The notes under the pieces are model-generated. The model worked only from the letters and a program-made list of their open reading frames with translations. It did not search any database and was not told the origin of the DNA. From Squalus acanthias (Eukaryota), in NCBI GenBank assembly GCA_030390025.1, contig CM059432.1:5394001-5458000 (forward strand): a stretch of DNA of 64,000 nucleotides. Direction: 5' to 3'. Of this stretch, positions 36,412 to 60,266 are shown one piece after another. The position numbers and the translations under genes were made by a program. Within the stretch, counting starts at the first letter, position 1, and every line of letters begins with the position of its first letter.

Positions 36412-36507
36412 ATGAGGATGAGCTCGCCCTTGGATCGCTGGTATTCCAACAGCTGCTGCTGCTGTCATGTTCGCACTGGGACCATAATCCTGGGAGTCTG
36501 GTACATG
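36412..36507 (+). CDS. LAPTM4B: Lysosomal-associated transmembrane protein 4B, first coding exon
   Basis: [32 protein letters not shown] then a GTGAGT donor (phase 0). Matches the recalled vertebrate LAPTM4B N-terminus (..[25 protein letters not shown]). Not in the ORF track. Confidence 0.93.
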
Positions 36508-36514
36508 GTGAGTT

Positions 36515-39820: not shown

Positions 39821-39977
39821 TATATATAATCAGATTTCTCAGAGCATTTAGGTCAAACGTGTTTAATAAGCATTTCTGATGCAGTACCAAAGTGTGTTAT
39901 TTACAATGTCTTGATATTTTTGCACATAAGTAACTAATTTACAGAAACTTCAAAATCTACCATTCTTACTTACTGAA

Positions 39978-40492
39978 CAACAACTACTTGTATTTATATA
40001 GCACCTTTAATGTAGTGAAACGTCCCAGGGCGCTTCACAGGAGCGATTATCAAACAAAATTTGACACTGAGCCACATAAGGAGATATTAGGGCACATGAC
40101 CAAAAACTTGGTCAAAGAGGTAGGTTTTAAGGAGCGTCTTAAAGGAGGAAAGAGAGGGAGAGGTGGAGAGGTTTAGGGAGGGAATTCCAGAGCTTGGGGC
40201 CCAGGCAGCTGAAGGCACGGCCGCCAATGGTGGAGCGATGAAATCGGGGGATGCGCAAGAGGGCAGAATTCGAGGAGCACAGAGATCTCGGAGGGTTGTA
40301 AGGCTGGAGGTGTTTACAGAGATAGGGAGGGGGGGCGAGGCGATTGAGGGATTTGAAAACGAGGATGAGAATTTCAAAATCGCGGTGTTGCCGGAGCGGA
40401 AGCCAGTGTGGGTCAGCGAGCGACAGGGGGGTGATGGGTGAACGGGACTTGGTGTGAGTTAGGACACGGGGGCAGCAGAGTTTTGGATGAGC
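39978..40492 (-). mobile_element. L2 LINE 3' fragment
   Basis: (CAA)n tail and KTLLKTYLFDQVF. Confidence 0.85.
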
Positions 40493-40560
40493 ACAGAACC
40501 ATATTGGTCAACCAATGGAGGCTGTTTAGTCAGCGTATTTCAAATGTAAAAGATGAGCGT

Positions 40561-40920
40561 AGAAAAATGCTGCAAACACACAGTAGGTTAGTCAACATCT
40601 GTGGAGAGAATGGATAAGTTTACCTTTTGGGTGCAGACCCTTCTCCAGACTGAGTTCTGCCCCCGAAATGTAAACTTGTCTTATGATGTATTTACAGCAC
40701 AGAAACAGGCCATTCAGGCCCGACAGCTCCATGCCAGTGTTTACGCTCCACACGAGCTTCATCTCACCCCATCGACATATCCCTCTATTCCTTTCTCCCT
40801 CATGTGTTTATCTAGTTCCCCCCCCTTTTGTCTGTTCCCTTCACAGATGCGGTCTGTGTGTTTCCAGCACATTCAGTACTGGTTTCAGATTCCCCCAGCA
40901 TCCGCAGTATTTTTGCTCTT
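40561..40920. mobile_element. Inverted pair of Penelope-like termini split by a small CR1 tail
   Basis: Minus-oriented terminus 40561-40655 with a decayed hammerhead (CTGGAGA-A-GGGTctgcACCC-AAAA); plus-oriented remainder 40655-40680 and 40830-40920. Confidence 0.55.
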
Positions 40921-41065
40921 TTACTTGTGAAAACAAAAACAAATGCCTTTTTTTTTGGTTGTGCGAAGAAAATTAAATAGCAAAGCGTTCGATCAAGCTT
41001 TTGCTCCTGCACTGGTAATTTAGGACAGTTTGGTGCCGGGGGGTGGGGGGAGGGGGTCAACATAT

Positions 41066-41372
41066 GGGGGCATAATTTCAGAATAAGGGGGCACCCATTT
41101 AAAACGGAAATGAGGAGGAATTTCTTCTCTCAGAGGGTCGTGAATCTTTGGAATTCGCTTCCCCAGAGAGCTGTGGAGGCTGGATCATTGAATATATTTA
41201 AGGTGGAGAGAGACAGATTTTTGAACGGTAAGGGAGTCAAGGGTTCTGGGGAGCGGGCAGGGGAGTGGAGTTGAGGCCAAGATCAGATCAGCCATGAGCT
41301 TATTGAACGGCAGAGCAGGCTCGAGGGGCCGAATGACCTACTCCTGCTCCTATGTCTTATTATGTTCTTATG
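41066..41372 (+). mobile_element. CR1 3' fragment
   Basis: GHNFRIRG...RRNFFSQRVVNLWNSLP and CR1 tail. Confidence 0.88.
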
Positions 41373-42127
41373 TAAATGATTGGCAGGTCTTCAAATGTCG
41401 GAAAAACTGCAACTCGAGCTGCGGTTGTGTTGGAAATGCAAGTAGCTAGAATTCGATCTGTTGGGAAGATTATATTCATTACCTGGTATCCATTACATCA
41501 AAGGGCTTCGTATATTCAGACTGATGCGCTGGCGATGAAGGTAGCTGTCCAGCAATTCAGCAAAGGTGTTAGAGAGTTAAGTTTGCCCCGTACCGTATAA
41601 GTAGTAATTTATATCCAACCTGATACGCACCAGAGTGCATGAGTCACGTGGAAAGATAATCAGGGAAACTGAAACGCTATCACCATTAAATTTTCAGCAG
41701 CCCCTTTAAGCCTTGGCAAGATAATTGATACACATGAATGAGGCAATAAAATAGTCATATTTTGATTGAAGCCATATCTTCTCAAGTCCTGAATTCGCAA
41801 AGGGCTGATTCTTCCTTTGAAATGCCGTCCCCCATAAGCATTCGTGAATTGTATTTTTGCTGTATTTTGGTGGTGTTTTTTTTTTGCACTTGCAAGCTAT
41901 TTTTTAAGAGGAGCTGCAGACTAATGATTTGGCAAGTTTCCCTTATTTTCAGCCTGGCCCCCCTTGCAAAAAATAACTGCATCCTATTAAATTGAATTCA
42001 TGTCGCAGTGGATCGTTTTTTGATATTTTTGCAATAGATTTTGGGTCTCATCTTTCTACCCTTTAAATGTTTATGCTTGATGGTTTCTAACTTGGGAGAT
42101 TTCTCTCCTGCATCGGTACTTTACTCT

Positions 42128-43487
42128 CATAGAATCGTAGAAATTCTATGGTGCAGAAGGAGGCCATTCGGCCCATCGTGTCTGTGCCGGCCAACAAAGA
42201 GCTATCCAGCCTAATCCCACTTTCCAGCTCTTGGTCCGTAGCCCTGCAGGTTACAGCACTTCAAGTGCATATCCAAGTACATTTTAAATGCGATAAGGGT
42301 CTCTGCCTCTACCACCCTTTCAGGCAGTGAGTCCCAGACCCCCAACACCCTCATTGTTGTCAGAAGCCTTTCCCATTCCTTCGCCGTTTCTAGACGCAAC
42401 ATCTAGGAACATAGGAACAGGAGGAGGCCATTCAGCCCCTCGAGCCTGTTCCGCCATTCAAAGAGATCGCGGCTGATTTATATCTTACTCACCTTGGTTC
42501 CATATCCCTTAATACCCCTTGCCTAACAAAAATCTATCCATCTCAGTCTTTAAATTTTCGATTGACCCCCCAGCCTCAACAGCATTTAGGGGCAGAGATT
42601 CCAGATTTCCACGACCCTTTGTGTGAAGAAGTGCTTCCTGACATCACCCCTGAACGGCCTGGCTCTAATTTTAAGGTTACGCCCCCTTGTTCTGGACTCC
42701 CCCCCCACCCCCCCACCCCCACCCCCCACCAGAGGAAATAGTTTCTTTCTATCTATCCTATCAACTCCTTTAATCATCTTAAACACCTCGATTAGATCAC
42801 TCCTTAATCTTGTATACTCGAGGGAATACGAGCCTAGTCTACGCAACCTGTCCTCATAATTTAACCCTTTTAGCCCCGGGTATCATTCTGGTGAATCTGC
42901 GCTGCTCCCTCTCCAAGGCCAATATATCCTTCCTGACGTGCGGTGCCCAGAACTGAACAGAGTACTCCAGATGGGGTCTGATCAGCGCTTTATACAACTG
43001 AAGCATAACTTCCACCCCTTTATATTCTCCAACGCCTTCCTTGCCAGCCTCCTGTCCTGTACCCTTCATAAGCCCTAAAACCTATCGCTTGTATCCTGAC
43101 CCATGCTAAGTCCTGCTCACCATCACCCCATCCATATTTGATTGAGGTTTTTAGGATTTTGACAGGAATTGATAGGGTAGATAGAGGGAAACAGTTTCCA
43201 CTGGTGGGGGAGTCTAGGACAAAGGAGCCTGGCCATTCAGGAGAGACGTTAGGAAACACTTCTTCACGCAAACAGTGGTAGAAGTGTGGAACTCCCGCAA
43301 AAAGCAGTAGATGCTAGCTCAATTCATAATTTTAAATCTGAGACCCATAGATCTTTGCTAGACAAGGATATTAAGAGATATGGAACCAAGGCGGGTGGAT
43401 GGAATTAAGATACAGATCAGCCATGACCTCATTGAATGGCGGAACAGGCTCGAGGGGCTGAATGGCCTACTCCTGTTCTTATGTTCC
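42128..43487. mobile_element. CR1 3' fragments: minus 42128-42352, minus 42405-43030, plus 43137-43487
   Basis: ORF2 C-terminal peptides and tails; the last two share a tail type and are inverted. Confidence 0.85.
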
Positions 43488-43767
43488 ATCCTTCCTAATC
43501 CAGCTCCAGCTCTGCATCTCCAGCCCTTTGTTCCTCCCCGTGTGACTCTGTTCTTGTGACTCTGTCCCTCCCACTGCTACAGCTTTGGTGGCAGATCCCA
43601 GCCCTACTCTTTGGAGCTCGCTCTGCAAACATCTTCGCCTCTGCATTTGCCTCCCCTTCTCCAAGAGCCTACTGTAAGCACAAACTCTTTGCTCAAGCTT
43701 ATGGCCTCCTCTTCTAACCCGTGTGAACGCTGGGATTCTACTCTTGTTCTCCTCTCTTGGGATGTTT

Positions 43768-44116
43768 TTCAACAACAACAACAACGTGTATTTATATAGC
43801 GCCTTTAACATAGTAAAACGTCCCAGGGCGCTTCACAGGAGCGATTATAAAACAGAAATTTGACACCGAGCCACATAAGGAGATAGGTGACCAAAAGCTT
43901 GGTCAAAGAGGAAGGTTTTAAGGAGCATCTTAAAGGAAGAGAGAGAGGTAGCGAGGCGGAGAGGTTTAGGGAGGGAATTCCAGAGCTTAGGGCCTAGGCA
44001 GCTGAAGGCACGGCCGCCAATGGTGGAGCGATTAAAATCAGGGATGCGCAAAAGGCCGGAATTGGAGGAGCGCAGAGATCTCGGAGGGTGGTAGGGCTGG
44101 AGGAGGTTACAGAGAT
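43768..44116 (-). mobile_element. L2 LINE 3' fragment
   Basis: (CAA)n tail; GGRAFSCLGPKLWNSLP. Confidence 0.87.
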
Positions 44117-44714
44117 GCGTTAACGGCACTATATAAAAGTGAGTTGATGTTGCTGGTGAACTCAAAGGGATGTGCGACGGTATTGTGGGGAAGGTTTGCA
44201 CTACTTTGCTTTAGTATGTGCAAAGATCCAGCTGGGACCTGACTTTTGGGTCATACCGCCACTTGCATCAGTGCACACAGCTTTACATTATCAACGTGAC
44301 AGCGTAATTGCACCCTTAGTTAATTGCATTTAATTAATTTTGTATTTAACTTCAATAGAGAAGAGAACTGTATCCTCTCTAAGATGGGTGTGAAAGGTTG
44401 TGAACACTGTTACATCTACCCATGTGTCGGTGTACAATTAATACAATAGAAAAGACCAAATTGGTCAGATTTGAAAGTCTGGCTCTATATGTCTGGCACA
44501 TTTTAGTAAATACTATATTGTACCATAGTCCACGTGATATCTGGGGGAGTATGTAATTATTGCATCATTTTGTTCCCTCAATTTAAATTCCTGATTCTAA
44601 GGTACGACATAAGAATCTGGATAGACGCATTCTGGCTTTGACAGACACCCGTGTGACATCAATTCACATTTGCATTAAGATCCTTAAAAGATATGTGCTA
44701 TAAATAAAGAACAG

Positions 44715-45035
44715 AAGTCTTGCCTTTATATCGCACCCTTCATGACCTCAGGCCATCCCAAAGCACTTTACATCCAATTAAATGCCTTTGAAGTGTCGTC
44801 GCTGTTGTAATGTGGGAAACGCGGCAGCCAATTCGCGCATAGCAAGATCCCACAAACAGCAATGTGATAATGACCAGATAATCTGTTTTTAGTGATGTTG
44901 ATTGAGGGATAAATATTGACCAGGACACCGGGGAGAACTCCCCTGCTCCTCTTCGAAATAGTGGCCCTGGGATCTTTAACGTCCACCTGAGAGAGCAGAC
45001 GGGGCCTCGGTTTAACCTCTCATCCGAAAGACGTT
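44715..45035 (-). mobile_element. Deu-domain SINE, 3' two-thirds
   Basis: Core and tail in reverse orientation. Confidence 0.85.
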
Positions 45036-45522
45036 AAACCTTGTGCGACTAGCTAGATCATTTCCATTGTTAAGTTTAAGGTGACAAATTTTAAGTAAAA
45101 TTAAGTAACAATTTTCAATTTCAATCTATGATTTGTTCCCTTGGGAGAGTAAGTATGGCAATAATTGTTATCACGATAGCTGCACAATTCTCGTGAAGAG
45201 GACTAATTTTGCAGGGCTATGGGGAAAAAGCTGGGGTGTGAGACTAATTGGAGAGCTCTTTTCAAAGAGCCGGCACAGGCATGACAGGCCGAATGGCCTC
45301 CTTCTGTGCTGTAAGATTCTACCTCACTGCATCTTTTATTTATTTTGGTGAATCATAGTGAAGGATGCTAGTGTTGTGCAATAGAACATTTTCCCCTTTT
45401 TTTTGCGCCCATCAAGTGATCCCAGGGCAGGGCCAGCAACATCATAGGTAAAATAAATCTCCCTCTACCCTGATCCAACAGTGTATCTCCAACCTCAGAA
45501 TAATATCCCACTTCCTGCTTAG

Positions 45523-45937
45523 TGTCAGCTGTGGCTCAGTGGGCAGCACCCTCACCTCTGAGTCAGAAGGTTGTGGGTTCAAGTCTCGCTCCAGGGACTT
45601 GAGCACAAAAACCTAGGCTGACACTCCAGTGCAGTACTGAGGGAGTGCTGCACTGTCGGAGGTGCCGTCTTTCGGATGAGAAGATAAACAGAGGCCCTGT
45701 CTGCTCTCTCAGGTGGATGTCCTTGGCCAATATTTAGCTCTCAATCAACATCACTAAAACAGATTATCTGGTCATTATCACATTGCTTTTGTGGGAGCTT
45801 GCTGTGCGCAAATTGGCTGCTGTGTTTCCTACATCACAACAGTGACTACACTCCAAAAGTGCTTCATTGGCTGTAAAGTGCTTTGGGACGTCCGGTGGTC
45901 GTGAAAGGCGCTATAGAAATGCAAGTCTTTCTTCTTT
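45523..45937 (+). mobile_element. Deu-domain SINE
   Basis: A/B boxes, core with a short deletion, tail. Confidence 0.88.
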
Positions 45938-46194
45938 CCACAAGCATAAATTTCTTTACATTTCCCATCTCACTTCCTCTCATGGCCTCTCGAAGTGAGA
46001 CAGCAACTTATACATTGCATTTAAAGTAGCAACACTTCCCAAGGTGCTACACTGGGTGGAGGGGAGACTGAGCAAGAATTGGGAGGAAACAAATGAGACA
46101 AGACCAAAGGCCGAGGTTGTGAGGAAACATTTGACAGAGGGGAGAAATGTAAGAAGGGTTTGGGAAGACAAAACCAGAGAGCAGAGCCAGGATG

Positions 46195-46867
46195 AACATA
46201 AGAACATAAGAAATAGGAGCAGGAGTCGGCCATTTGGCCCTTCGAGCCATTCAATAAGATCATGGCTGACCTTCTACCTCATCTCCACTTTCCTGCACTA
46301 TCCCCATATCCCTTGATTCCCTTAATATCCAAAAATCTATCGATCTCTGTCTTGAATATACTCAACGACTGAGCCTCCACAGCCCTCTGGGGTAGAGAAT
46401 TCCAAAGATTCACCACCCTCTGAGTGAAGAAATTTCTCCTCGTCTCAGTCCTAAATGGCCGACCCCTTATTCTGAGACTGTGACCCCTGGTTCTAGACTC
46501 CCCAGCAAGGGGAAACATCCTCCCTGCATCTACCCTGTCAAGCCCTGTAAGAATTTTGTATGTTTCAATGAGATCACCTCTCATTCTTCTAAACTCTAGA
46601 GAATATAGGCCTAGTCTACGCAATCTGTCCTCATAGGACAATCCCCCCATCCCAGGAACCAGTCTAGTGAACCTTCGTTGCACTCCCTCTATGGCAAGTA
46701 TATCCTTCCTTAGGTAAGGAGACCAAAACTGTACACAATACTCGAGGTGTGGTCACACCAGGGCCCTATATAATTGCAGTAAGACGTCTTTACTCTTATA
46801 CTCAAATCCTCTTGTAATAAAGGCCAACATACCATTTGCTTTCCTAATTGCTTGCTGTACCTGTATG
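46195..46867 (-). mobile_element. CR1 3' fragment
   Basis: QRRFTRLVPGM...RRNFFTQRVVNLWNSLP. Confidence 0.92.
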
Positions 46868-47295
46868 GTAGAAAGCTGTGCTACTGATGGTGGATGGAGG
46901 GGGAGCAGGGGGAACACATGGCAGTGCAGATCCAGAAGAGCTGGAGGAGGCTATCGAGATATGACATGAAGAAATGTCCAAACCAGCACAAGAATTTTGA
47001 GTCTGCAAGGTTAGGGGTGATGGTTGAGCAGGACTTAGTATGGGATTGGATGTTGGTCATGGAGTTCCGGATAAGCTGGAGTTTGTGTTAGGGAGGACTT
47101 GGGAGGCCAATATGGAGAGTGTTGATGAGAGAGCCTTTGATATCTTTGTTGGACAGATCTTTCAAAGAGCCGGCACAGGGACAATGGGCCAAACGGCCTC
47201 CTTCTGTGCTGTATCATTCTATAAGCCTGGAGGTAATGAGGGCATGGATGAGGGTTTCAGTGACCGTGGGGGTGACGTAGAAGTAGAGACACAAA

Positions 47296-48084
47296 GGGCT
47301 GGATTTTGTCTTGGGGTCGGGTTGGGGTCGTGTCATCCGCATTTCGTGGTTCCCCCCCGACTCCAGATTAATGTGGATGAATGATGCAATTTTCACTTAA
47401 TTGGGCAATTGAGTTCCAGCATGTGGGAACCCATGAACTAATTAGTGTTTTCAGTCTGAAAGTCGCCTCTGATGATGTCATCATTGCTGACTGCCGAGTC
47501 TCAGAGACTGTTGGTGAGAGAGGACCTGCGTGGCTTGCTTTTGATGTGTGTGGACCTGGATGCAAAAATGGGGGGGGGTTAAGAGAGAGAGAGAATGAGA
47601 ATTTTTTTGCATCCAAGTCCTCTCACAGCAAAGGCCAGGCAGTCTCTGAAGACATTCAATGCAGCAGCATCAGAGGCGACTTTCAGACCTAATACTACTA
47701 CTACCTTCATCACAATACTACTACTACCTTCATCACATCTCCGTTGTAATAGTGGACCTGCAGCTCATAGTCAGCTATCCACTTGTGCTCCCGCCAGGTT
47801 TCACTGGAGTGTTTCACACCAGGCGTACTTCACGTCAGAAAAGGGTTAAACTAGCTAAAACGTTTCAAAATGGCATTACAGAGCCAATTTAGGGCTTGTT
47901 AAGGGCTTTAATGGCCTCTCCCGCCTCTTGGAGGCGGGACGGAGTCGGGAACCCCGCGACTGATTTTGTCAAAATTGCGTGGAGGCGGGATGGAGTCGGG
48001 ATGGGGTCGGGACCCCCGACCCCGCAAATTTAACCCCCCACACGCCTCCAAACCCGACTCCATGGGTCATTCAAAATCCAGCCC
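47296..48084. mobile_element. Non-autonomous Harbinger-type TIR element
   Basis: Perfect 13-bp TIRs GGGCTGGATTTTG / CAAAATCCAGCCC; flanks AAA/ATA. It sits next to an old L2 remnant (ETLIHALITSRL at ~47225-47260). Confidence 0.75.
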
Positions 48085-48301
48085 ATAATGTTTTGGAGGT
48101 GGAAATAGGCGTCTTGCTGATGGACTTGAGTTTGAAGCTCTTACTCACAGATGAACAGGACACCAAGGTTGTGAACTGTTCGGTTTAGTCTTGAGCGAGC
48201 AGCTGGGGAGGGGGGCTGATGAGTTTTGAGAACTGAACACAATCTTACCACCACTTACTGAGTTGGAATACGTTCTGGCTTGTCTCTGATTTGAGTTTGT
48301 C

Positions 48302-49077
48302 AGTGAGTTCCAGACCCCCACCACCCTCTGGGTGAAAAAAGTTCTCCTCAACTCCCCTTTAATCCTTCTACCAATTACTTTAAATCTATGCCCCCTGGTT
48401 ATTGACCCTTCTGCTAAGGGAAATAGGTCCTTCCTATCCACTCTATCTAGGCCCCTCATCATTTTATACACCTCAATCAGGTCTCCCCTCAGCCTCCTCT
48501 GCTCCAAAGTCAACAACCCTAGCCTATCCAATCTTTCCTCATAGCTAAAATTCTCCACTCCTGGCAACATTCTCGTAAATCTCCTCTGCACCCTCTCTAG
48601 TGCAGTCACATCTTTCCTGTAATATGGTGACCAGAACTGCGCGCAGTATTCTAGCTGCGGCCTAACTAGTGTTTTATACAGTTCAAGCATAACCTCCCTG
48701 CTCTTATATTCTATACCTCGGCTAATAAAGGCAAGTGTCCCATATGCCTTCTTAACCACCTTATCTACATGTCCTGCTACCTTCAGGGATCGGTGGACAT
48801 GCACTCCAAGGTCCCTCTGATCCTCTGCACTTCTCAGTGTCCTACCATTTATTGTGTATTCCTTTGCCTTGTTAGCCCTCCCCAAATGCATTACCTCACA
48901 CTTCTCCGGATTGAATTCCATTTGCCACTTTTCTTCCCACATGACCAGTCCGGTGATATCTTCCTGCAGTCTGCAGCTTTCTTCTTCATTATCAACCACA
49001 CGGCCAATTTTTGTATCATCTGCAAATTTCTTAATCATGCTTCCTACTTTGAGGTCTAAATCATTGATATATACCAC
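48302..49077 (-). mobile_element. CR1 RT fragment
   Basis: VYINDLD...KFADDTKIG...RPQLEYCAQFWSP...FFTQRVVGVWNSL. Confidence 0.93.
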
Positions 49078-49559
49078 AAAAGACAGTTGGACAGCACAGC
49101 AATAGTTCTGGAGTCAGGTGCAGTGAATTGAGAATTAGAACTTTGGTGTTGTCATGGGACATACGCATAAAATTTGATCCCTTGCTCCCACATAACATCG
49201 GCAAGGGGCAGCATACACACCAGCAGTGTGCGAGGGGGTTGAGGACGGGATCTTGGGGCAACTCGCCGTTGGTTGTGGGGTCATAGGAGGAGAATCCATT
49301 GCAGGAGATTGTGTTGGGAATAATGGGAGAGGTGGAATTGGAGAAGTGGAAAGGTAAGTGCTGCGGAGGTGAGGCGATGTAGCCGGATTGAATGTTGTGG
49401 CGAGGTTGGCGTGCCAAATTCTGAACATGTGCATACTGTGAACAGACGCTCGGTAAGAACTGGACTGAGTTTGATAAAACTTACTTTGCGTCGAACTTTT
49501 ACACGTAGCAGGGAGAAGAAATCTGTTCCCATCAATCTGGCTGAATTTGAATCAACGAA

Positions 49560-51285
49560 GGGCTGGATTTTCCGGGGGGGGTTTCAGTGGGCGCGATCGG
49601 TGGCGGGTCAGGTGGGAAAATGTTTTTTTCCCCCCAGCGGGTCAGGACCCCGCTGTGAACCCGCCACCACGCGCCTTTACCAAATGTCGGGTCTGCCAGC
49701 GCTGAGCAGACCCGACACACAGTGGCGGGGGCGGCAATTACAATCATTAGTGGCTTATTTACAGCCAATTATCAATGGTTTTTCCCCAGCTTTTTGGATT
49801 TGACAGGTCACCCACCGGTTTCCCGCTGTGCCTAGACCTCGTCTGTGAAGCTGAGGCGGGAGGTCAGTGGCCATTGAATCAGCTGATGATTTGACAGCTT
49901 CAAATGTCAAGTCAAAGCTCCCAGCTGATTGAGAAATGTTCCCTTAGCCGCTAGCTTCTCTAAACTGCATTTCCACTACAGATTCAGGATGCTGCAAGTC
50001 TTTACACAAGTCTCCATCCAGTCTGACCTCATTACCTCTCCCACCATTGACAGATCGCTTCTGTCATCTCTACTTCACCTGCCATCTATTCCACCAGCAT
50101 GGGTGCCCTTGAAACTCTCTCACCTTGGTCCTCAGAATCAAACCACGATCAGCCCCAACACCAGCATCACCGGGCACACCAGCAGCACCAACATCAACAC
50201 CAACCTTCTCCGCAATCACCTGATGCTGCACAGGACACAGGGCATCAGCACCCGACCACATTGCTGCCCAGAAGGTCAGGGATGGCCTCATCATGGCCAG
50301 ATTTACTTCACTTGACGCTGTACACCCTGGCTGCCACATCATGTGCCAGGTTGGCACCACCCCACACCAACACCATAAAGCATCCCTACAATGCCCAAGC
50401 CATTCCTTTCACACTCACCACCATTGCGGGGGGTACCGTTATGTCTCACCATTCACTGCAACTGACTAAGACACTTCCAACGGTGCACACAAATCTGTCC
50501 AAGAACGCAAAGAGTTGAAAATAAAGTTTTCAATGTTTGACACCACATTAACAGAAACTTTACATGAACATTGCATAAAACACCCAAGTGTTTACCCTTG
50601 TGTGTTGTTAGTTGGTATGATTGGACTAGGATGAGGGTGAGTGTGAGGGGTGGCTAGTGAGATGGAAAAGTGATAATATAGATAGAGAGGGATGGATGGA
50701 GGTGCAAGGTAAGTTGGTGTGAGTAAGGATGTGCAGGAGTAGGGTAGGGAAGGCAGAGTGATGGGGATGTGATGAGAGGCACAGCAGGATAAGGTTGAGT
50801 GTGGCTTTGTACTAACATTTTGTGATCTATTGCACTGCACCCAGGCCTTCCTGACCACATCCCTGCTTGTGCCCTCCTCTGCAATGTGCAACCAGGCTGT
50901 GTTGGTCTCCTGGGGAGGTCTCTTCCGCCCATGGGAAGGGGAGAGGACCTCCCTGCGTGCTGTGACTCCCTCCATAAGCAAATGGAGGGAGCCATTGGAG
51001 AGCCTGGGTGCAGCCCTGTGCCTCTGTGCAGCGCTTGTCGGTGTTTGCAGCACCTCAATGCTGTAGAACACCGACAGCACAAATGTCAAACTAAAGTTGG
51101 CCGTGGTCCCTTTAAGGAAACCGGCTGATGGTGCGTCATGAATGATGTCACCAGACCCGCTTCCTCTAATTGGCCGGGAAAATGCGCTGGGCGGGGCTTA
51201 ACAAGCCCAATCAGGGGAAATTCATTCCAGAGGCCGGGATGGAGCCGGCACCGGGGTCGTCGCCGAGGTTCGTAAAATCCAGCCC
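49560..51285. mobile_element. Harbinger deletion derivative with Myb/SANT remnant
   Basis: TIRs GGGCTGGATTTT / AAAATCCAGCCC, 3-bp TSD GAA on both sides, internal minus-strand Myb/SANT-like peptide. Confidence 0.85.
50825..51035 (-). pseudogene. Myb/SANT-like DNA-binding protein remnant (Harbinger accessory ORF)
   Basis: RAAPRLSNGSLHLLMEGVTARREVL...AWLHIAEE...RKAWVQC fits the trihelix Myb/SANT pattern (R.PRFS..L...V..R...L...AW..IA...R...QC). Confidence 0.75.
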
Positions 51286-51647
51286 GAAAGGGTGGGGAAG
51301 GTTATCTCACTCACTGCACCTATCAAAGGTATGGGATACGGAAGCACTGGAGGAGGGGCGGTGTGCTCCATCCGAGCTAAAGGTTGATATTAGTGTCGAG
51401 TCAAGATGGATGGTAGCAGTAAGAGCGCACCGTGCAGTTCCGGTGCCAAAGAAAAATCAATTCTCCAGCACTTTTATCCAACGCTGTGATCCATCACCAT
51501 GATATATACACAGATGTGCACAAAATATATAATAATTAGCATTAATATTGGGAATCATGGAAGAGATAAGTGTGACTCACTAAGTACGTACGTCTTGGTG
51601 ATCAGTGGTTTGGGAGATAAAAATACCGGCCATACTGACCAATAAAT

Positions 51648-52960
51648 TCTTGACAGGGTAGATGCTGAGAGGCTGTTTCCCCCTGGCTGGAGAGTCTAGA
51701 ACCATGGGGCATAGACTCAGGATAAGTGGTCCACTGAAGCGTACAAGAGCATGGGCCTTACACTAAACATCCATAAGACAAAGGTCCTCTACCAACCTGC
51801 CCCCGCCACACAGTACTGCCCCCCGATTATCAAAATCCATGATGAGGCCTTGGACAACGTGGACCACTTTCCATACCTTGGGAGCCTACTGTCAACAAGG
51901 GCAGACGTCGATGACGAAGTCCAACACCGGCTTCAGTGTGCCATTGCAGCCTTCGGTCGCTTGAGGAAGAGAGTGTTTGAAGACCAGGACCTCAAACCCA
52001 GACCCAAGCTCATGGTCTACAGAGCAGTAGTGATACCCGCCCTCCTGTATGCTTCAGAGACATGGACCATGTACAGCAGGCACCTCAAAGCACTGGAGAG
52101 GTACCACCAACGCTGCCTCCGCAAGATCCTGCAAATCCATTGGCAGGATAGGCGCACCAATGTCAGTGTTCTCACTCAGGTCAACATCCCCAGCATCGAA
52201 ACTTTGACCACGATCGATCAGCTCCGATGGACGGGCCACATCGTCTGCATGCCCGATACGAGACTCCCAAAGCAAGCGCTCTACTCGGAGCTCCGACACG
52301 GCAAGAGAGCCCCAGGTGGGCAGAGGAAACGCTTCAAGGACACCCTCAAAGCCTCCTTGAAAAAGTGCAACATCCCCACCGACACCTGGGAATCCCTGGC
52401 CCAAGACCGCACAAAGTGGAGGAGAAGCATCCGGGAAGGCGCCGAACACCTCGAGTCTCTTCGCCGGGAGCAAGTGGAAGCCAAGCGCAAACAGCGGAAG
52501 GAGCGCACGTCAACCCAAGCACCCCACCCACCCGCCCCTTCAACCACCGTCTGCCCCACCTGTGACAGAGACTGTAGGTCCCGCACTGGACTCATCAGTC
52601 ACCTGAGAACTCATTTTTAATGTGGAAGCAAGTCATCCTCGGTTCCGAGGGACTGCCTAAGAAGAAGAATAGTCTCAGGATAAGGAGTCGGGCCATTTAG
52701 GACTGAGATGAGGAGAAATTTCTTCACTCAGAGGGTGGTGAATCTTTGGAATTCTCTACCCCAGAGGGCTGTGGATGCTCAGTCGTTGAGTATATTCAAG
52801 ACGCAGATCGATAGATTTTTGGACACTCAGGGAATCAAGGGATATGGGGATCGGGCAGGAAAGAGAAACTGATGTAGAACTTCAGCCGGGACCTTATTGA
52901 ATGGCGGAGCAGGCTCGAGGGGCCGTATGGCCGACTCCTGCTCCTATTTCTTATGTTGTT
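51648..52960 (+). mobile_element. CR1 3' fragment split by an RTE insertion
   Basis: CR1 sequence 51648-51731 resumes at 52669. Confidence 0.85.
51732..52668 (+). mobile_element. 5'-truncated RTE-clade LINE; open ORF 51751-52620
   Basis: GLTLNIHKTKVL...FPYLGS...LLYASETW...LRWTGH...RLPKQALY...GGQRKRFKD, C-terminal C2H2 (CPTC...HLRTH), (AAG)n tail, ~21-bp TSD. Confidence 0.92.
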
Positions 52961-53299
52961 ATGTGTCAGTTTTGATGCATAGGTGGTTCGCACAATACCC
53001 GATGCTGAAATGCTAACTGGGAATGAGCCATAACAATTAAGGCCATTGGTTGTCTTGCCAACCACCGACCGGCATTACTGTCTCCATGTTGAAAGGCAGG
53101 CTGCAGGTGTCCTGCCTGCAGATGACAAAGCTCTGTCAGCTGACCTGTACCAAGGTGAGACAGTTGTCCTGGGCCATTGGTAAATAGGTAGGCCAAGGTC
53201 TGCAGAATGGCCTTCTGATATACCAGGTATGCATCTTGTACCATCTCCTCCATAAGATTGAGGTGCTTTACAAACAGATATAACTTGTTTAAAAAAAAA

Positions 53300-53769
53300 A
53301 GGAAAGTCTTGCATTTATATAGCGCCTTTCACGACCTCAGGACGTCCCAAAGCGCTTTACAGCCAATGAAGTAATTTTTGAAGTGTAGTCACTGTTGTAA
53401 TGTGGGAAACGCAGCAGCCAATTTGCACACAGCAAGCTCCCACAAACAGCAATGTGATAATGACCAGATAATCAGTTTTTAGTGATGTCGGTTGAGGGAT
53501 AAATATTGGCCCCAGGACACCGGGGAGAACTCCCCTGCTCTTCTTTGAAATAGCGGCCATGGGATCTTTTACATCCACCTGAGAGCGCAGATGGGACCTC
53601 GGTTTAACGTCTCATCCGAAAGACGGCACCTCCGACAGTGCAGCACTCCCTCGGTATCTGCACTGGGAGTGTCCGCCTAGATTATGCGCGTAAGTCCCTG
53701 GAGTGGGGAGCTTGAACCCACGACCTTCTGTCTCAGAGGCGAGAGTGCCGCCCACTGAGCCACGGCCGA
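53300..53769 (-). mobile_element. Full-length Deu-domain SINE
   Basis: Complete reverse copy. Confidence 0.9.
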
Positions 53770-54419
53770 CAAGAAAAATCAGCGGGAAGAAAAGGCGAGG
53801 AAAAACCAACCAGGGTTCGAGCTGCTGGCTGCTTCCCGGTAACTCCAGTCTGACTGTGTAAGCACTGGGTGAGACCAGGATTGAGTTTTTGCTGTGATGT
53901 GTTCCAGTCAGACAGACTGCCAGCACTCACTGTTTAGGCTCTCGCAGGAAGAATGCTCATTTGGATGAAGCACTGGAAGGCTGCCGGTATCTGTGGAACG
54001 CGGTGTGCCAATTCATCAGCAACGTCGAGCGAGCTGGGAAAAATTGAGGGGAGAGAGCTTTCAACTACAGCCGCACTTTACTGACTGTTATAGTGTTTGT
54101 GCTTTGTTTCGGCCATTCGCCCCATTGTAACTTACCCTAGTTTTAACGAAAAGAAGTATAAAGTCATTGATGCATGAAGGACCGAGGGTTAATTTGATCT
54201 GGGAACGCTCACTAGTTTTGCAGGGATAGGCGCTGAAAATCTGTGGGCTTGCAAACCCAGCAGCACGGTGCCTGCGGGAGTACTCTACCGCTGATCCTGA
54301 CGGACTTTCTGGGGTCGGGGGAGGGGTGGGGGGGGACGGTGTCCTCGCGTGCAAATCAGCGGCAGTCACCTGCGCATCCATGGACATGTTTAGGCTGACC
54401 GCCTGGAGGCTGCAAGGTG

Positions 54420-54572
54420 CTGTTTGTGGGAGCTTGCTGTGCGCAAATTGGCTGCCGCGTTTCCCCAGATTACAACAGTGACGACACGCGTCAAATGTAC
54501 TTCACTGGCTGTAAATGCGCTTTGGGACGTCCTGAGGTCGCGAAAGGCGCTGTCTAAAATGCAAATCTTTCT
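54420..54572 (+). mobile_element. Deu-domain SINE 3' fragment
   Basis: Tail portion only. Confidence 0.8.
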
Positions 54573-55300
54573 TGTTTCGCTTCCATAAGTCGCAGCGCTT
54601 TCCAAGTCATTCCTGAGGCAGAGCACTTGAGAGGTTTTGAAGTGAATGTATGAATGCAAATATTGTTACTATTTACAACCTATATTATTTTTAGTACTGG
54701 CCTGTCCGGAATGGACGTACCACAGGTCGTCCGTCAACCTTGCGCTCCCGGTGGGAAGTCTGACACCCATCAGGAAACCCGGTCACTTGCTCTGCGCGGT
54801 TTCCCAAACCCAAGGCCCAGAAACCCGCGGGCTGTACGTCTCAGTGTAAGTTGTGGGATGTGCTCCCCTTTGACCTCTCGTTTGTCAGCGATGAGGGAAA
54901 GCGCTCTGTTCGAATATGGCGGGTGCGCGGCCACACCACTAGGGGGGCACATCTTGTGCGCCAGCCTGTGGCTGTCCCTGTTAGAAACTGGAATGCTCCT
55001 GTCTAGGGTGTTGGGGTAGACAGGGCCACGATCCAGGACGAGACCCCCGGGGTCTGGCCCCACATTCGCCGTTTGGCAGGGCCGCACGCCTGGCTTTATC
55101 CAGTGTACCGGCCAGCCAATATCCCGCCAGACCAGGGTGCTGGAACTTCTGTCCTGGAAGCTTTAGGCTCGTGTGGAACATACATACCGGCATGGACCAG
55201 TTGGGCCGAATGGCCTGTTTCTGTGCTGTACTTTCGATGTCCCTGGCCACACTCCCTCCTAAGCCACTGCAAGGGGCTGTGATATATCAGCCCATTGTAG

Positions 55301-55915
55301 GGTACAATAGCGTAGTGGTTATGTTACTGGACTTGCAATCCAGGGGCCTGGACTAATGATCCAGAGACATCATTAGTCTCCTCCCCTGCTCTCTCCCCAC
55401 CTTCCCGTCCCCTCCACTTGCTCTCCTCCTCCTCCCTCCCCTGCTCTCTCCCCACCTTCCCGTCCCCTCCACTTGCTCTCCTCCTCCCCCCCTCCCCTGC
55501 TCTCTCCCCACCTTCCCGTCCCTACAAGAGTTCAAATCCCACCACGGCAGCTGGGGAATTTAAAATCAGTTAATTAAATAAATCTGGAATTAAGAAGCTA
55601 GTATCAGTAATGGTGACCATGAAACTACCGGATTGTCATAAAAACCCATCTGGTTCACTAATGTCCTTACCTGGTCTGGGCTATATGTGACTCCAGACCT
55701 ACAGCAATGTGGTTTGACTCTTAACTGTTCTCTGAGCAAACCACTCGGTTGTACCAAACCACTACAAGGAAGTATACGCACTGTGGGAGTACCTTCACCT
55801 CATGGACTGCAGCGGTTCAAGAAGGCGGCTCACCACCACCTTCTCAAAGGCAATTAGGGGATGGACAATAAATACTGGCCTTGCCAGTGACGCCCACATC
55901 CCGTGAATGAATAAA
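55301..55915 (+). mobile_element. Second tRNA-headed SINE family sharing the tail of the 25140 LINE
   Basis: A-box-like TAGCGTAGTGG, B-box GAGTTCAAATCC, 3' end gggcaattaggggatggacaataaatactggccttgccagtgacgcccacatccc. Confidence 0.75.
55377..55523. repeat. C/T-rich minisatellite (~57-bp unit, ~2.6 copies) inside the SINE head
   Basis: ctcccctgctctctccccaccttcccgtccc occurs three times. Confidence 0.85.
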
Positions 55916-56164
55916 CAGAAAAATAAAATCACGCTTAATTAAAACGGTCAGGAAATCATGCACAGTGCGAGCCTGAATTTCCAATATCTCTCGCCCAGGA
56001 GAGTGAGGCTCCCTGTCTGGAATGTGAGGTCGGAAAATTACCTGCATTATCTTCAAGTTGGAGGCTGAACCATTAACAGCTAAACGCTCTTCCAATCTGC
56101 CATAGGAGGTGCCCCAGGGCACACCTCAATGCCTGTCTCTCCAAGAACATTTTTAAAATTCATT

Positions 56165-56628
56165 CACAGTGCTGTTAGGGAGGGAGTTCCAGGATTTTGA
56201 CCCAGCGACAATGAAGGATCGGCCCGATATATTTCCAGGTCAGGATGGTGTGTGACTTGGAGTGGAACTTGGAGGTGGTGGTGTTCCCATGCGCCTGCCG
56301 CCCTTGTCCTTCTAGGTGGAAGAGCTCGTGGGTTTGGAAGGTGCTGCCGAAGAAGCCTTGGCGAGTTGCTGCAGTGCATCTTGTAGATGGTACACACTGC
56401 AGCCACGGTGCGCCGGTGGTGGAGGGAGTGAGTGTTTAAGGTGGTGGATGGGGTGCCGATCAAGCGGGCTGCTTTGTCCTGGATGGTGTTGAGCTTCTTG
56501 AGTGTTGCTGGAGCTGCACTCATCCAGGCAAGTGGAGAGTATTCCATCACACTCCTGACTTGTGCCTTGTAGATGGTGGAAAGGCTTTGGGGAGTCAGGA
56601 GGCGAGACACTCGCCACAGAATACCCAA
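56165..56628 (-). mobile_element. Second CR1-group LINE fragment
   Basis: LGILWRVSRLL...IYKAQVRSVMEYSPLAWMSAA; same family as 25140. Confidence 0.82.
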
Positions 56629-56949
56629 CATTGCAGAGCTGATTAATGTTAATGATGGGTTAGACAGCTGAAGTACTGCCCAGGGCAACTGGTGCAGCCA
56701 GTTCACGGTCACCTGCAATCCTGCTGATCTATTAGCCAGGGCTTACGAGTAAGTAGCGCTATTTGGAGGATCGGTGGTCTTCACAGTGTCTGACAGGTTT
56801 GAGATGTGACCCTTGCAACGCACAAGACTTAAGATCCTAGATTTTGGAAGGAGGCGCGATCTGCACCAGATGTGTGACAGAGTGGGACATCCGCCTGCCT
56901 GACCTCGTGCAGTGCCGTCCCCACCGTGACTTCCAGGATCAGCCTCATT

Positions 56950-57580
56950 TTACATAGAATTGCACAGAAAGTACAACACCGAAAGAGGCCATTCGGCCCA
57001 ACTGGTCCGTGCTGGTGTTTATGCTCCATGTGAGCCTCCCCCCCCCCTCTTCATCCCACCCCATCAGTAAGTAATCGGTAGAAGGATTAGACGGGAGTTG
57101 AGGAGAACTTTTTTCACCCAGAGGGTTGTGGGGATCTGGAACTCACTGCCTGAAAGGGTGGGAGAGGCAGAAACCCTCATCACATTTAAAAAGTACTTGG
57201 ATATGCACTTGAAGTTCCATAACCTGCAAGGCTACGGACCAAGAGCTGGAAAGTGGGATTGGGCTGGATAGCTCTTTTTCGGCCGACTCAGACACGATGG
57301 GCCGAATGACCTCCTTCTGTGCCGTAAATATCTATGATTCTATGAACATATCCTTCTATTCCTTTCTCCCTCATGTGTTTATCCAGCCTCCCCTTAAATG
57401 CATCTATGCTATTCGCCTCAACCACTCCCTGTGGTAGCGAGTTCCACATTCTCACCACTCTCTGGGTAAAGAAGGTTCCCCGATTGGATTTATTGGTGTC
57501 TATCTTGTATTTATCCCTAGTTTTGGACTCCCCCCCTCCCCCCCCACCCCCCACAAGTGGAAACATCTTCTCTACATCAT
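56950..57580. mobile_element. Nested CR1 3' fragments (plus copy ~57070-57345 inside a minus copy)
   Basis: The minus tail at 56950-57067 resumes at ~57346 after an opposite-strand CR1 end. Confidence 0.78.
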
Positions 57581-57789
57581 TTGAATAGTTAGCTTGGGCT
57601 TTGGAAAGACCTGTCACTGGGGAGCTTGCCCACCTGGTCGCAGACAATACCCCGCTGCAGCAGCTTAAAGGACCAGACGTCATCACAATCCTTTTGGCTG
57701 AATCGAGGGAATATCGGCTCGTAAAAATGTCTGGACTGCTGCAGAGTCCGCTGATATGTGGATTCTGAGGTGGAAATACGACTGCAGGA

Positions 57790-58392
57790 GGTTAGTCCGT
57801 AAGGGTGACCCCGAGCTTCCGGTCGCCTGTCATTTTAATTCACCGCTCCACGCCCACTCTGACCTCACCGTCCTCGGCCTCGTGCATTGTTCCACGGAAG
57901 CTCAGCGTAAGCTCGAGGAACAGCACCTCATCTTCCGATTAGGCACTTTACAGCCTTCCGGACTCAATATCGAGTTCAACAATTTCAGATCATAACCTCG
58001 GCCCCTACCACATATGTATACATTTTATCCACCCTTTTGGTTCGTGCCTTTTTCCTTTTTTTTCTCTCTCTCCCCCTACGGCAGCTGTCTCTCATTCTGC
58101 CAGCATTTCACACTTCTAGCCACCTTTTGTTTCTTAACCTGTCCTATTACCATCTCGTCTTGCCTTGAGCATCTCTTAATGTCTCTACTTACCATAGTGA
58201 TTCCTCCCCCCAGCCTCCCCCTTGCTTTTTTATCTGTTTCATTTCCTGCTTTTTTCTCAGTTCTGACGAAGGGTTTCGACCTGAAACGTTAACTCTGTTT
58301 CTCTCTCTCCACGGATGTTGCCTGGCCTGCTGAGTTTTTCCAGCGTTTCCTGTTGTTGTTTCAATTTTCCAACATCCGCAGTATTTTGCTAT
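57790..58392 (+). mobile_element. Penelope-like element 3' end: GIY-YIG C-terminus plus pLTR
   Basis: VRKGDPELPVACHFNSPLHAHSDLTVLGL...RKLEEQHLIFRLGTLQPSGLNIEF* is a characteristic PLE endonuclease tail, followed by a pyrimidine-rich spacer and hammerhead-containing terminus. Confidence 0.88.
58259..58294 (+). ncRNA. Minimal type I hammerhead ribozyme motif with intact core
   Basis: AGTT (stem I) CTGACGA - AGGGTTTCGACCT (stem II) - GAAA - CGTT (palindromic AACGTT, GUU triplet) - AACT (stem I). Confidence 0.72.
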
Positions 58393-58584
58393 CGTAGAAA
58401 GAAAGAACTTGCATTTACACAGCTGCTGTTTCCCAGAGTGGCCGGCGCGATTTTAAGCGCTTTCATGGTGGTTTTATTTCAAGCCTTCGTGAATGGGAAG
58501 GTGGATGTTGCTCCTGATTTTATTTTTCCCATCTCACGGAGCACGGTGGCATCATGGCAAATGGTGGGCGAGAAGCGCATGAGG

Positions 58585-59895
58585 ACCCCACTATTTAAAA
58601 AAGGAGGGAGAGAGAAAACAGGGAACTACAGACCGGGTTAGCCTAACATCAGTAGTAGGGAAAATGCTACAGTCTATTATAAAGGATGTGATAACAGGAC
58701 ACTTAGAAAATATCAACGGGATTAGACAAAGTCAACATGGATTTATGAAAGGGAAATCGTGTTTGACAAACCTACTGGAGTTTTTTTTGAGGATGTAACT
58801 GGTAGAGATAGAGGATCAGCCATGATCACATTGAATGGCGGAGCAGGCTCGAAGGGCCGAATGGCCGACTCCTGCTCCTATTTCTCTATGTTTCTATGAC
58901 CCCTCCCACCAGCTCCTCTGATGCCTGCGCATGTGGCAGAAAGAAGGCAGGGCAACTGCAGTAGCACAAGGCTCGGAGCCTGCAGCAAGCCTATACTAGG
59001 ACTCAACTGCTGCGAGGCAAAGGCCACCTCGGTCCCAACAGACTCCACTTGGCATCTTATATTTTTGAACGGTAAGGGAGTCAAGGGTTATGGGGAGCGG
59101 ACAGGGAAAGTGGGAGTTGAGGCCAAGACCAGATCAGCCATGATCTTATTGAATGGCGGAGCAGGCTCGAGGGGCCGAATGACCGACTCCTGCTCCTATT
59201 TCTTATGGTTCTTATGGCATATAATGATCAGTCACCTCATGCATTCCTGCCACTCTAATCGGAGAAGCACTAGATTAGAGTTAAGAGTTCATATTTCACA
59301 TTCACCACAGAATTTTTAGGCTTGTGTATTTATAGCCTGTAGCTCAAACATAGAGTCATACAACATAGAAGGAGGCCATTCGGCCCATCGTGCCTGTGCT
59401 GGCTCTTTGAAAGAGCTCTCCAATTAGTCCCACTCCCCCCTGCTCTTTTCCCACAGTCCTGCAAATTTCTCCTTTTCAAGTAATTTATCCAATTCCCCTT
59501 TTGAAAGTTACTATTGAATCTGCTTCCACCGCCCTTTCAGGCAGCGCGTTCCAGATCACAACAACTCACTGCGTAAAAAAATGTCTCCTCATCTCCCCTC
59601 TGGTTCTTTTGCCAATTACCTTAAATCTGTGTCCACTGGCTAATGACCCTCCTGCCCCTGGAAACAGTTTCTCCCGATGTACGCTATCAAAACACGACAT
59701 CATTTTGAACTCTGCTCTAAGGAGGACAATCCCAGCTTCTCCAGTCTTTCCACATAACTGAAGTCCCTCATCCCCGGAACCATTCTGGTAAATCTCCTCT
59801 GCAAACCCTCTCCAAGGCCTTGACATCCTTCCTAAAGTGCGGTGCCCAGAACTGGACACAATACTCCGGCTGAGGCCGAGCCAGTGATTTATAAA
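58585..59895. mobile_element. CR1 fragments: plus 58585-58897 (internally deleted), plus 59060-59215, minus 59350-59895
   Basis: TPLFKKGGREKTGNYRP joined to a tail; further tails and [14 protein letters not shown]. Confidence 0.82.
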
Positions 59896-60154
59896 CTGAT
59901 CTGTTATCTGTATTGAAGCAAATCTCTGAATGGTATCCATTTCTTCTCACATTCTATAAATTCTGTAATTTCTTGGAGACCATGTACAGGATATTTATAA
60001 CGTTCTATGATGTGTAGGTGATAATTAAATATATTAATATTGATTCATTAGGATTATTGAAAACAATTTGCATTCTCTTAAAAGGCCCTTGGGGATTGGA
60101 AAAGATCGGCTTTTGATCCGCGTTATTTACTGATCTATTCTTCTCTTCCACTAG

Positions 60155-60266
60155 CTGATCAATGGTGTGGTGCTGCTGATCTTACTGTCTGCACTCAGTG
60201 ACCCAGAACGGTACCATCTGCCCCGTGCTGAACTAGGCAGTGACTTCGACTTCACCGATGATGCCA
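60155..60266 (+). CDS. LAPTM4B: LAPTM4B second coding exon (112 nt)
   Basis: Polypyrimidine tract and TAG acceptor at 60152-60154, LINGVVLLILLSALSDPERYHLPRAELGSDFDFTDDA, GTAAGT donor at 60267. In frame with exon 1 and matches recalled IINAVVLLILLSALADPDQY...ELGGDFEFMDDA. Confidence 0.95.

What the first reader, a model, noticed from the sequence alone, without database searches (positions are those of the whole stretch)
58259..58294. Hammerhead ribozyme with an intact catalytic core on the sense strand of LAPTM4B intron 1
Seen: both conserved boxes (CTGACGA, GAAA), a 4-bp stem I (AGTT/AACT), a stem II (AGG/CCT, or GGGT/ACCT with a UUCG loop after an extra A) and a palindromic AACGTT in place of stem III, ~270 bp downstream of a Penelope GIY-YIG stop codon. 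Established: Penelope-like elements carry minimal type I hammerheads thought to cleave as dimers. Inference: this copy is transcribed within the LAPTM4B pre-mRNA, 1.9 kb upstream of exon 2, so it could cleave co-transcriptionally. GUU is a weaker triplet and no second intact sense copy is seen nearby.
Basis: partly seen in the sequence, partly recalled or inferred. Interest (0 to 1): 0.72.

Follow-up and report, generated by a model that had tools for sequence, protein, structure and literature searches.

The report
Penelope stump hammerhead in LAPTM4B intron
This small hammerhead motif is one of tens of thousands carried on the broken ends of a Penelope-like jumping gene; this lone copy is missing from the same intron in a related fish and is likely a passenger that does not cut the LAPTM4B transcript.

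Summary
The motif is present as described, in the sense strand of LAPTM4B intron 1 (gene and exons confirmed). It is the minimal hammerhead of a 603-bp, 5'-truncated Penelope-like element (PLE, 57794-58396). The exact 36-mer has 1,163 copies in the genome. The family core pattern has 60,850 (control 122), and a second PLE family adds about 52,000. Stems I and II and the palindrome covary between the two families, so the fold is real. Rfam has no match.

Co-transcriptional cleavage of LAPTM4B is unlikely. Helix III is absent, so a dimer partner is needed, and the gene holds no second sense copy of this family. The hammerhead fold is under 0.2% of the predicted ensemble. Published monomers did not cleave, and the lizard PLE hammerhead needed the element's protein. 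One contig from a related organism shows the clean empty site, so the copy is not conserved. Genomic copies show no excess of 5' ends at the cut site (weak test). No usable RNA data were found.

The scan has noted shark PLE hammerheads many times on other DNA. Verdict: ordinary new member of a known kind; interest 0.15.

The parts
57794..58396 (+). 5'-truncated copy (603 bp) of an endonuclease-bearing Penelope-like element, likely Neptune clade
   Evidence: Homology to other genomic copies starts at 57794 and ends at 58393-58398; empty site in run X19
57795..57995 (+). Last 66 codons and stop of the PLE RT-endonuclease ORF (GIY-YIG motif itself truncated away)
   Evidence: 65/66 identical to residues 802-867 of the L087 frame, which hits RVT_1 (E 2e-5) and GIY-YIG (E 0.0025), both under Pfam's curated cut-offs
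57996..58314 (+). Pyrimidine-rich 3' UTR / pLTR carrying the hammerhead
58259..58294 (+). Minimal type I hammerhead motif: helix I 4 bp, extra A, helix II 4 bp + UUCG, no helix III, ACGU palindrome, predicted cut after 58290 (GUU)
   Evidence: 1,163 exact genomic copies
58315..58396 (+). First 27 codons of the PLE ORF (MLPGLLSF...), ending at the longer of two preferred 3' ends (the PLE tail)
   Evidence: Same peptide opens the ORF in copies that run on into the RT; 3' ends of 80 copies cluster at +62..+78 (43) and +93..+112 (32) from the cut
57793..57794 (+). TA at the 5' junction (2-bp target duplication or microhomology)
58395..58396 (+). TA at the 3' junction
36412..36507 (+). LAPTM4B coding exon 1 (GT donor at 36508)
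   Evidence: tblastn with shark LAPTM4B P0007, E 1e-15
36508..60154 (+). LAPTM4B intron 1 (23.6 kb), host of the insertion
60155..60266 (+). LAPTM4B coding exon 2 (AG acceptor, GT donor)
   Evidence: tblastn E 1e-17

Best explanation
The 36-mer is the minimal hammerhead in the pLTR of a 603-bp, 5'-truncated Penelope-like element sitting in LAPTM4B intron 1, and this lone copy is likely a passenger that is spliced out uncut. Shown: element anatomy, copy number, absence of a same-family sense partner in the gene, and an empty orthologous site in one relative. Inferred: the copy arose when the element's RT primed at its tail site (about +106 from the cut), read through the uncut hammerhead and the 3' UTR and stopped 66 codons into the endonuclease. 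Inferred: the motif is kept by selection on the mobile element, where two pLTRs on one tandem transcript could pair their ACGU palindromes into a 4-bp helix III, possibly helped by the element's own protein. A single copy in a host intron has no helix III and is predicted not to cleave on the time scale of splicing.
For: 1,163 exact copies, control 0. 60,850 core-intact family copies, control 122. 52,333 matches to a second pattern dominated by another PLE family, control 43 (overlap of the two patterns not measured). Fragment 98% identical to the end of an RT + GIY-YIG ORF. Hammerhead 23-25 nt upstream of the ORF start. Bimodal 3' ends, about 30-35 nt apart, in 75 of 80 copies. 10 of the 29 closest other loci have an inverted partner, one arm with and one without the tail (counted by eye). 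Empty site: contig 11 of run X19 runs 57656-57792 straight into 58395-58548. No second same-family sense copy from 36200 through the last exon. Hammerhead-compatible fold has probability 0.0016 alone and about 1e-6 to 1e-7 with 30-200 nt of flank; the ACGU duplex is worth only -1.7 kcal/mol. PMC4209133 (parts 1-3 of 4 read): a single min-HHR showed no detectable cleavage, dimers low. PMC11167929 (parts 1-2 of 4 read): the Anolis PLE HHR did not cleave without PLE protein, unprocessed RNA was the main substrate, and no RNA-seq reads began or ended at the site. bioRxiv 2026.07.22.740005 (passages): 1 of 9 Xenopus retrozyme dimers cleaved.
Against: The core is fully intact and the copy is young (12-18 mismatches over about 570-600 aligned bases to the nearest of the loci held), so it has not decayed. 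The subfamily lost one C of helix II yet keeps a 4-bp helix with a UUCG loop, which fits selection on the fold. Nearest-neighbour folding ignores tertiary contacts, Mg2+, proteins and co-transcriptional folding. The empty site rests on one contig in one of three DNA-like runs; X20 and X21 gave no listed bridging contig either way. No RNA test was possible.
Confidence: 0.82

Rival explanations
1. The copy is conditionally active. In cells that express the PLE, the element's protein, or an abundant PLE RNA pairing in trans through the ACGU palindrome, would trigger low-level cleavage of LAPTM4B pre-mRNA and of many other sense intronic copies, as a side effect.
For: PLE protein switches on HHR cleavage in vitro for the Anolis element (PMC11167929). 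Intact core. Near-identical family copies with long open frames exist (up to 867 aa). PLE-derived contigs occur in runs guessed to be RNA (not shown to be RNA).
Against: The copy holds only 82 nt of the ORF start, while the Anolis protein needed the first 172 nt of its ORF for activity (PMC11167929). The trans helix III is worth about -1.7 kcal/mol. No excess of genomic 5' ends at the cut: about 6 foreign junctions in the 100 listed of 134 hits at +1, against about 6-9 of 62 at +3 (classified by eye).
Confidence: 0.1
2. One reading: this copy cleaves LAPTM4B pre-mRNA co-transcriptionally by itself and so affects the gene's output.
For: Sense orientation, intact core, 4+4 bp stems, 1.86 kb before exon 2. 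Stems covary between families. GUU is an allowed triplet; a GUU-targeting ribozyme was the most active one in PMC9217987 (passages).
Against: No helix III and no cis partner. The only other sense hammerhead in the gene has an AGCU palindrome that cannot pair with ACGU and sits in a perfect fold-back. G-U instead of G-C at 10.1-11.1. Fold probability 0.0016 or less. Absent in a relative. All 7 coding exons are intact. About 60,000 like copies are tolerated genome-wide on both strands equally (30,274 / 30,576; not resolved by gene orientation).
Confidence: 0.04
3. In this PLE family the motif has drifted from catalysis and serves mainly as a structural or protein-binding signal at the ORF start, or overlaps a splice acceptor, so it would not cleave even as a dimer.
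For: All 31 family-A rows lack the G10.1-C11.1 pair called highly conserved in PMC4209133 (A-U or G-U instead, one mismatch). No cut-site footprint. HHR mutants did not affect insertion in vitro (PMC11167929). A TTAAC-pyrimidine-CAG|ATG acceptor-like run follows the cut in some copies.
Against: Both core boxes are identical in two families whose stems differ completely (the boxes were part of the search pattern). The acceptor AG is present in only 13 of 68 family copies counted and is CGG in this copy.
Confidence: 0.04

Closest known systems
Minimal hammerheads (min-HHR) in pLTRs of metazoan Penelope-like elements (Cervera and De la Pena 2014, PMC4209133; Lunse et al., cited in PMC6765202, not read)
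   Same: Type I layout, 4-bp helix I, extra nucleotide between 9 and 10.1, no helix III, palindromic 15.2-16.2, located in the pLTR, mostly present as dispersed single motifs on truncated copies
   Different: G-U (family: A-U or G-U) at 10.1-11.1 rather than G-C; helix II only 4 bp in this subfamily; about 60,000 copies of this family alone against about 4,000 (coelacanth) and 9,000 (Xenopus) reported there, by different search methods
PAc (Poseidon of Anolis carolinensis) hammerhead and tail (Frangieh et al. 2024, PMC11167929)
   Same: HHR at the pLTR-ORF junction; two preferred 3' ends 30-40 nt apart inside the ORF start; 5'-truncated genomic copies
   Different: Here the ATG lies 23-25 nt after the cut, in PAc the cut is 26 nt after the ATG; the ORF here has a C-x4-C-x2-C linker before the endonuclease, the Neptune-type feature named in PMC8557442 (no tree built)
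Domesticated intronic hammerheads of amniotes (RECK, CTCL, DTNB; PMC6155905 passages)
   Same: Type I hammerhead inside a host intron
   Different: Those are conserved across amniotes and drawn with tertiary contacts; this one is a minimal motif in a young high-copy insertion that is absent from a close relative
Rfam Hammerhead_1 and related hammerhead models
   Same: Same core consensus
   Different: No match at gathering score or at E up to 10, likely because helix III and loop 1 are missing (inference)

Membership tests
PLE minimal hammerhead (min-HHR) | Core boxes CUGANGA and GAAA..UH | tested here: met
   58263-69, 58283-86, GUU 58288-90
PLE minimal hammerhead (min-HHR) | Helices I and II supported by compensatory change | tested here: met
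   61 sequences, 45 distinct: 96.4% of cells paired; 4 of 4 helix I and 3 of 5 helix II pairs change on both sides; slid controls 15-42%. The signal comes mostly from two families, so it reflects few independent events
PLE minimal hammerhead (min-HHR) | No helix III; palindromic 15.2-16.2 | tested here: met
   ACGU here; CG (26) against GC (19) across distinct rows. The search patterns required CG or S-S at these places
PLE minimal hammerhead (min-HHR) | Extra nucleotide between 9 and 10.1 | tested here: met
   A58270
PLE minimal hammerhead (min-HHR) | Purine-pyrimidine pair at 10.1-11.1 (recalled consensus; G-C is typical per PMC4209133, not obligatory) | tested here: met
   G-U pair here; the typical G-C is not present in this family
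PLE minimal hammerhead (min-HHR) | Located in the pLTR of a PLE | tested here: met
PLE minimal hammerhead (min-HHR) | Self-cleavage as a dimer or with protein help | not testable with these tools
   Only contigs were served; the indirect genomic footprint test showed no excess
EN+ Penelope-like element | Single ORF with RT and C-terminal GIY-YIG | tested here: met
   In relative L087 (both Pfam hits under curated cut-offs); this copy holds only the last 66 codons
EN+ Penelope-like element | 5' truncation, inverted or tandem partners, 30-40 bp tail | tested here: met
Neptune clade of PLEs | Cys-rich linker between RT and EN; phylogenetic placement | tested here: inconclusive
   C-x4-C-x2-C seen in the L087 frame; no tree built
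Domesticated intronic hammerhead (RECK type) | Conserved at the orthologous site across species | tested here: not met
   Empty site in run X19, organism F (one contig)
Domesticated intronic hammerhead (RECK type) | Canonical monomer architecture with helix III | tested here: not met
   No helix III; no Rfam match

The most novel reading that the evidence does not exclude
The genome carries on the order of 100,000 core-intact PLE hammerheads, many of which must lie sense in introns like this one. If the PLE protein or PLE RNA switches them on in trans, PLE expression would nick host pre-mRNAs genome-wide, LAPTM4B included, making a mobile-element-triggered ribozyme network.
Probability: 0.07. 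Interest if true: 0.75.

Novelty: new member of a known kind. Interest (0 to 1): 0.15.

Why it matters
As a single locus it matters little: it is a recent transposon stump. The family is of some use because the role of PLE hammerheads is still open (PMC8557442 passages say so), and this genome offers two very large, young families with different stems and palindromes for dimer and protein-assistance assays. With gene annotation, it would also allow a well-powered test of whether sense intronic copies are selected against. If trans activation were real, a retroelement could cut host pre-mRNAs at thousands of sites.

Tried and rejected
Rfam: no hammerhead at gathering score in the whole window or at E up to 10 in 57600-58600 (three unrelated chance hits).

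Pfam on single exons and on the 66-aa fragment: no hits (the second protein may be off the exon). ESM Atlas on exon 2: no usable hit. PF03821 search of G000: nothing, and its controls were silent too, so it is uninformative.

RNA evidence: no RNA holder listed. All 24 runs are contigs, which cannot show ends, strand or level, so say nothing on expression, cleavage or splicing. Runs X20 and X21 gave no listed contig bridging either the empty or the filled site.

Cut-site footprint: of 100 listed copies anchored downstream (54,724 in all), about 30 begin within the 45 nt shown, spread over many positions, and 1 is ambiguous at the cut (by eye). Of the 100 listed of 134 hits forced to start at +1, about 43 are small deletions, 27 are inversion joints on the AGTT/AACT microhomology (compatible with a start at the cut but not proof), 9 other inversions, 9 insertions, 6 foreign and 6 other. 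The +3 control gave 62 hits, about 6-9 foreign. The -4 control (754 hits) was rejected because about 95 of 100 listed are another repeat's end. The test misses copies preceded by a pyrimidine and exact fold-backs.

Heterodimer with the intron 3 hammerhead rejected (ACGU against AGCU gives two mismatches). Cryptic acceptor rejected for this copy (CGG, not CAG).

Literature: 'hammerhead ribozyme' + 'shark' gave 22 papers, 20 listed, none on shark PLE hammerheads by title or abstract start. Lunse et al. is not held. Supplements of PMC4209133 were not read and may list shark motifs.

Full report
1. Observation. The sequence at 58259-58294 is as described: helix I AGTT/AACT, CTGACGA, an extra A, helix II GGGT/ACCT with a TTCG loop, GAAA, the palindrome AACGTT and a GUU triplet with the predicted cut after 58290. 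On its own the motif is not statistically unusual. The generic two-box pattern has 4 matches in the window against 6.4 expected, the 36-mer folds no better than shuffles (z -0.11), and Rfam finds no hammerhead at gathering score or at E up to 10. The host gene is LAPTM4B: a 41-aa exon hits 204 proteins, those listed with a name nearly all LAPTM4B, the best identities (95%) in sharks and rays. Three cartilaginous-fish proteins map all 7 coding exons on the + strand. The motif lies in the 23.6-kb intron 1 (36508-60154), 1,860 nt before exon 2.

2. What it is. A DNA search of the own genome (3.7 Gb) gave 1,020 candidates, 40 scored at 89-100% identity. The exact 36-mer occurs 1,163 times, 600 + and 563 -, control 0. 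The pattern CTGAYGA-N12-16-GAAACGTY occurs 60,850 times against 122 for the reversed pattern. A pattern demanding G10.1-C11.1 occurs 52,333 times against 43, and its 100 listed matches all belong to a second family with an AGCT palindrome. The window copy is homologous to other loci from 57794 to 58396. Its first 66 codons are 65/66 identical to the end of an 867-aa frame at L087, which hits RVT_1 (E 2e-5) and GIY-YIG (E 0.0025), both below Pfam's curated cut-offs. That frame has a C-x4-C-x2-C run before the endonuclease, the linker that PMC8557442 (passages) ties to Neptune PLEs; I built no tree. In copies that carry the 5' end of the ORF, the hammerhead is followed by an ATG 23 nt after the cut and the peptide MLPGLLSF..., which runs on into the RT. 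The last 82 nt of the window copy (58315-58396) are thus the ORF start. The 3' ends of 80 copies (loci chosen on the full tail or on the ORF 5' end left out) fall at +62..+78 (43) and +93..+112 (32) from the cut, 5 elsewhere; the window copy ends at +106. Ten of the 29 closest other loci have an inverted partner with the other end type (by eye). This is the truncation, inversion and 30-40 bp tail pattern described for PLEs (PMC8557442 passages; PMC11167929).

3. Is the fold real? On 61 sequences (the window, the first 30 hits of each family pattern; 45 distinct), 96.4% of cells pair. All 4 helix I pairs and 3 of 5 helix II pairs change on both sides, and the palindrome flips CG/GC; slid controls give 15-42% paired. 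Caveats: most of the signal is one contrast between two families, the core boxes and palindrome were part of the search patterns, and the count of pairs with two-sided change alone (8) is matched by 83 of 500 shuffles. Family B also shows a C-G to U-A change within helix I. The window's subfamily lacks one C of the family's 5-bp helix II and keeps 4 bp with a UUCG loop. Family A has A-U or G-U, not G-C, at 10.1-11.1.

4. Does this copy cut LAPTM4B? Probably not. (a) There is no helix III; activity is thought to need a second copy (PMC4209133, parts 1-3 of 4 read: monomer no detectable cleavage, dimer low; review passages in PMC6765202). From window 36200 to past the last exon there is no other sense copy of the family: the two others found are antisense. 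The single other sense hammerhead, in intron 3 (L081:7099), is family B, has an incompatible palindrome and lies in a perfect fold-back. (b) The hammerhead-compatible monomer has ensemble probability 0.0016 alone, 2e-4 with 10 nt of flank and 1e-7 to 6e-6 with 30-200 nt; the intermolecular ACGU helix is -1.7 kcal/mol (nearest-neighbour model only). (c) The Anolis PLE hammerhead cleaved only with PLE protein, and no RNA-seq reads began or ended at its site (PMC11167929, parts 1-2 of 4 read). One of nine Xenopus retrozyme dimers cleaved (bioRxiv 2026.07.22.740005, passages). (d) The insertion is not conserved. In run X19 (organism F, flanks about 93-94% identical) one 324-nt contig aligns 57656-57792 and continues at 58395-58548 with no letters between. 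That is the empty site, with TA at both ends of the insertion. X20 and X21 were uninformative. (e) If cleaved RNA were a common template, genomic copies should pile up at +1. They do not: about 6 foreign junctions among the 100 listed of 134 hits at +1 against about 6-9 of 62 at +3, and about 30 of 100 sampled starts spread over the motif with one ambiguous at the cut. These were classified by eye; the test misses starts preceded by a pyrimidine and exact fold-backs, and 27 inversion joints on the AGTT/AACT microhomology could be read either way. Against my reading: the core is intact, the copy is young (12-18 mismatches over about 570-600 aligned bases to the nearest held loci), GUU can be cut efficiently in engineered ribozymes (PMC9217987, passages), and no RNA-level test was possible.

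5. Mechanism. Most likely (0.82) the element's RT primed at the tail site, copied through the uncut hammerhead and stopped in the endonuclease region, leaving a stump in the intron (inferred from the anatomy and from PMC11167929). The motif is likely maintained in the mobile lineage, where tandem pLTRs could dimerise; the lone intronic copy is likely removed uncut with the intron. Rivals: conditional trans activation by PLE protein or RNA (0.10), autonomous co-transcriptional cleavage (0.04), a family motif that no longer cleaves at all (0.04).

6. Comparison and novelty. It meets every testable feature of the PLE min-HHR class, with the atypical G-U at 10.1-11.1, and fails the tests for a domesticated intronic hammerhead. 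A search for 'hammerhead ribozyme' with 'shark' listed 20 of 22 papers, none on this subject by title or abstract start; the 2026 preprint includes one chondrichthyan genome; supplements of PMC4209133 were not read. The scan's own notes hold 236 findings on these words in at least 26 genomes, including the intron 3 fold-back of this gene; they are leads, not support. One of them reports cut-site footprints in another genome, which my test did not show for this family. Verdict: new member of a known kind, interest 0.15. The boldest reading not excluded is trans-triggered cleavage of many intronic copies (probability 0.07).

Noticed in passing
G000, genome-wide: About 95 of the 100 listed of 754 hits have a DNA-transposon-like end (AAAAT..GCCC type; class not tested) abutting the ACGT palindrome of the family-A hammerhead, which looks like an insertion hot spot of another repeat inside the hammerhead.
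   Followed up: no
L081:6945-7185 (LAPTM4B intron 3, about 6.9 kb past the window end): Fold-back pair of a second PLE family with back-to-back hammerheads (GGAGC/GCTCC helix II, AGCT palindrome); already noted by the scan as e1-7940316.
   Followed up: partly
window 58289-58317 and family copies: A branch-point-like TTAAC overlaps the cut site and is followed by a pyrimidine run and CAG|ATG in 13 of 68 family copies counted (CGG in the other 55, this one included). It may be a relic PLE intron acceptor.
   Followed up: partly
G000: 27 of 100 listed hits are inversion joints that use the 4-nt complementarity of helix I (AGTT/AACT) as microhomology; about 43 are short deletions between the two AAC repeats around the cut site.
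   Followed up: no
window 2349-2475 (-), 40565-40654 (-), 40854-40913 (+), 15725-15757 (-): Older, decayed PLE ends related to the same family (72-82% identity).
   Followed up: partly
L094 and L095 (C1, about 6.99 and 7.05 Mb): Tandem arrays of about 1.7-kb units, each with a family-A hammerhead on the same strand and a roughly 35-bp minisatellite; these are natural candidates for dimer cleavage.
   Followed up: no
L093:1416 and 1779: Two identical sense hammerheads of the window's subfamily 363 bp apart, a natural tandem dimer for an in vitro test.
   Followed up: no
window 51715-52620 (+), 56164-56742 (-), 60755-61309 (+): Open frames that look like 3' fragments of LINE retrotransposons (recalled resemblance; Pfam gave only weak zinc-finger hits for the first).
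   Followed up: no
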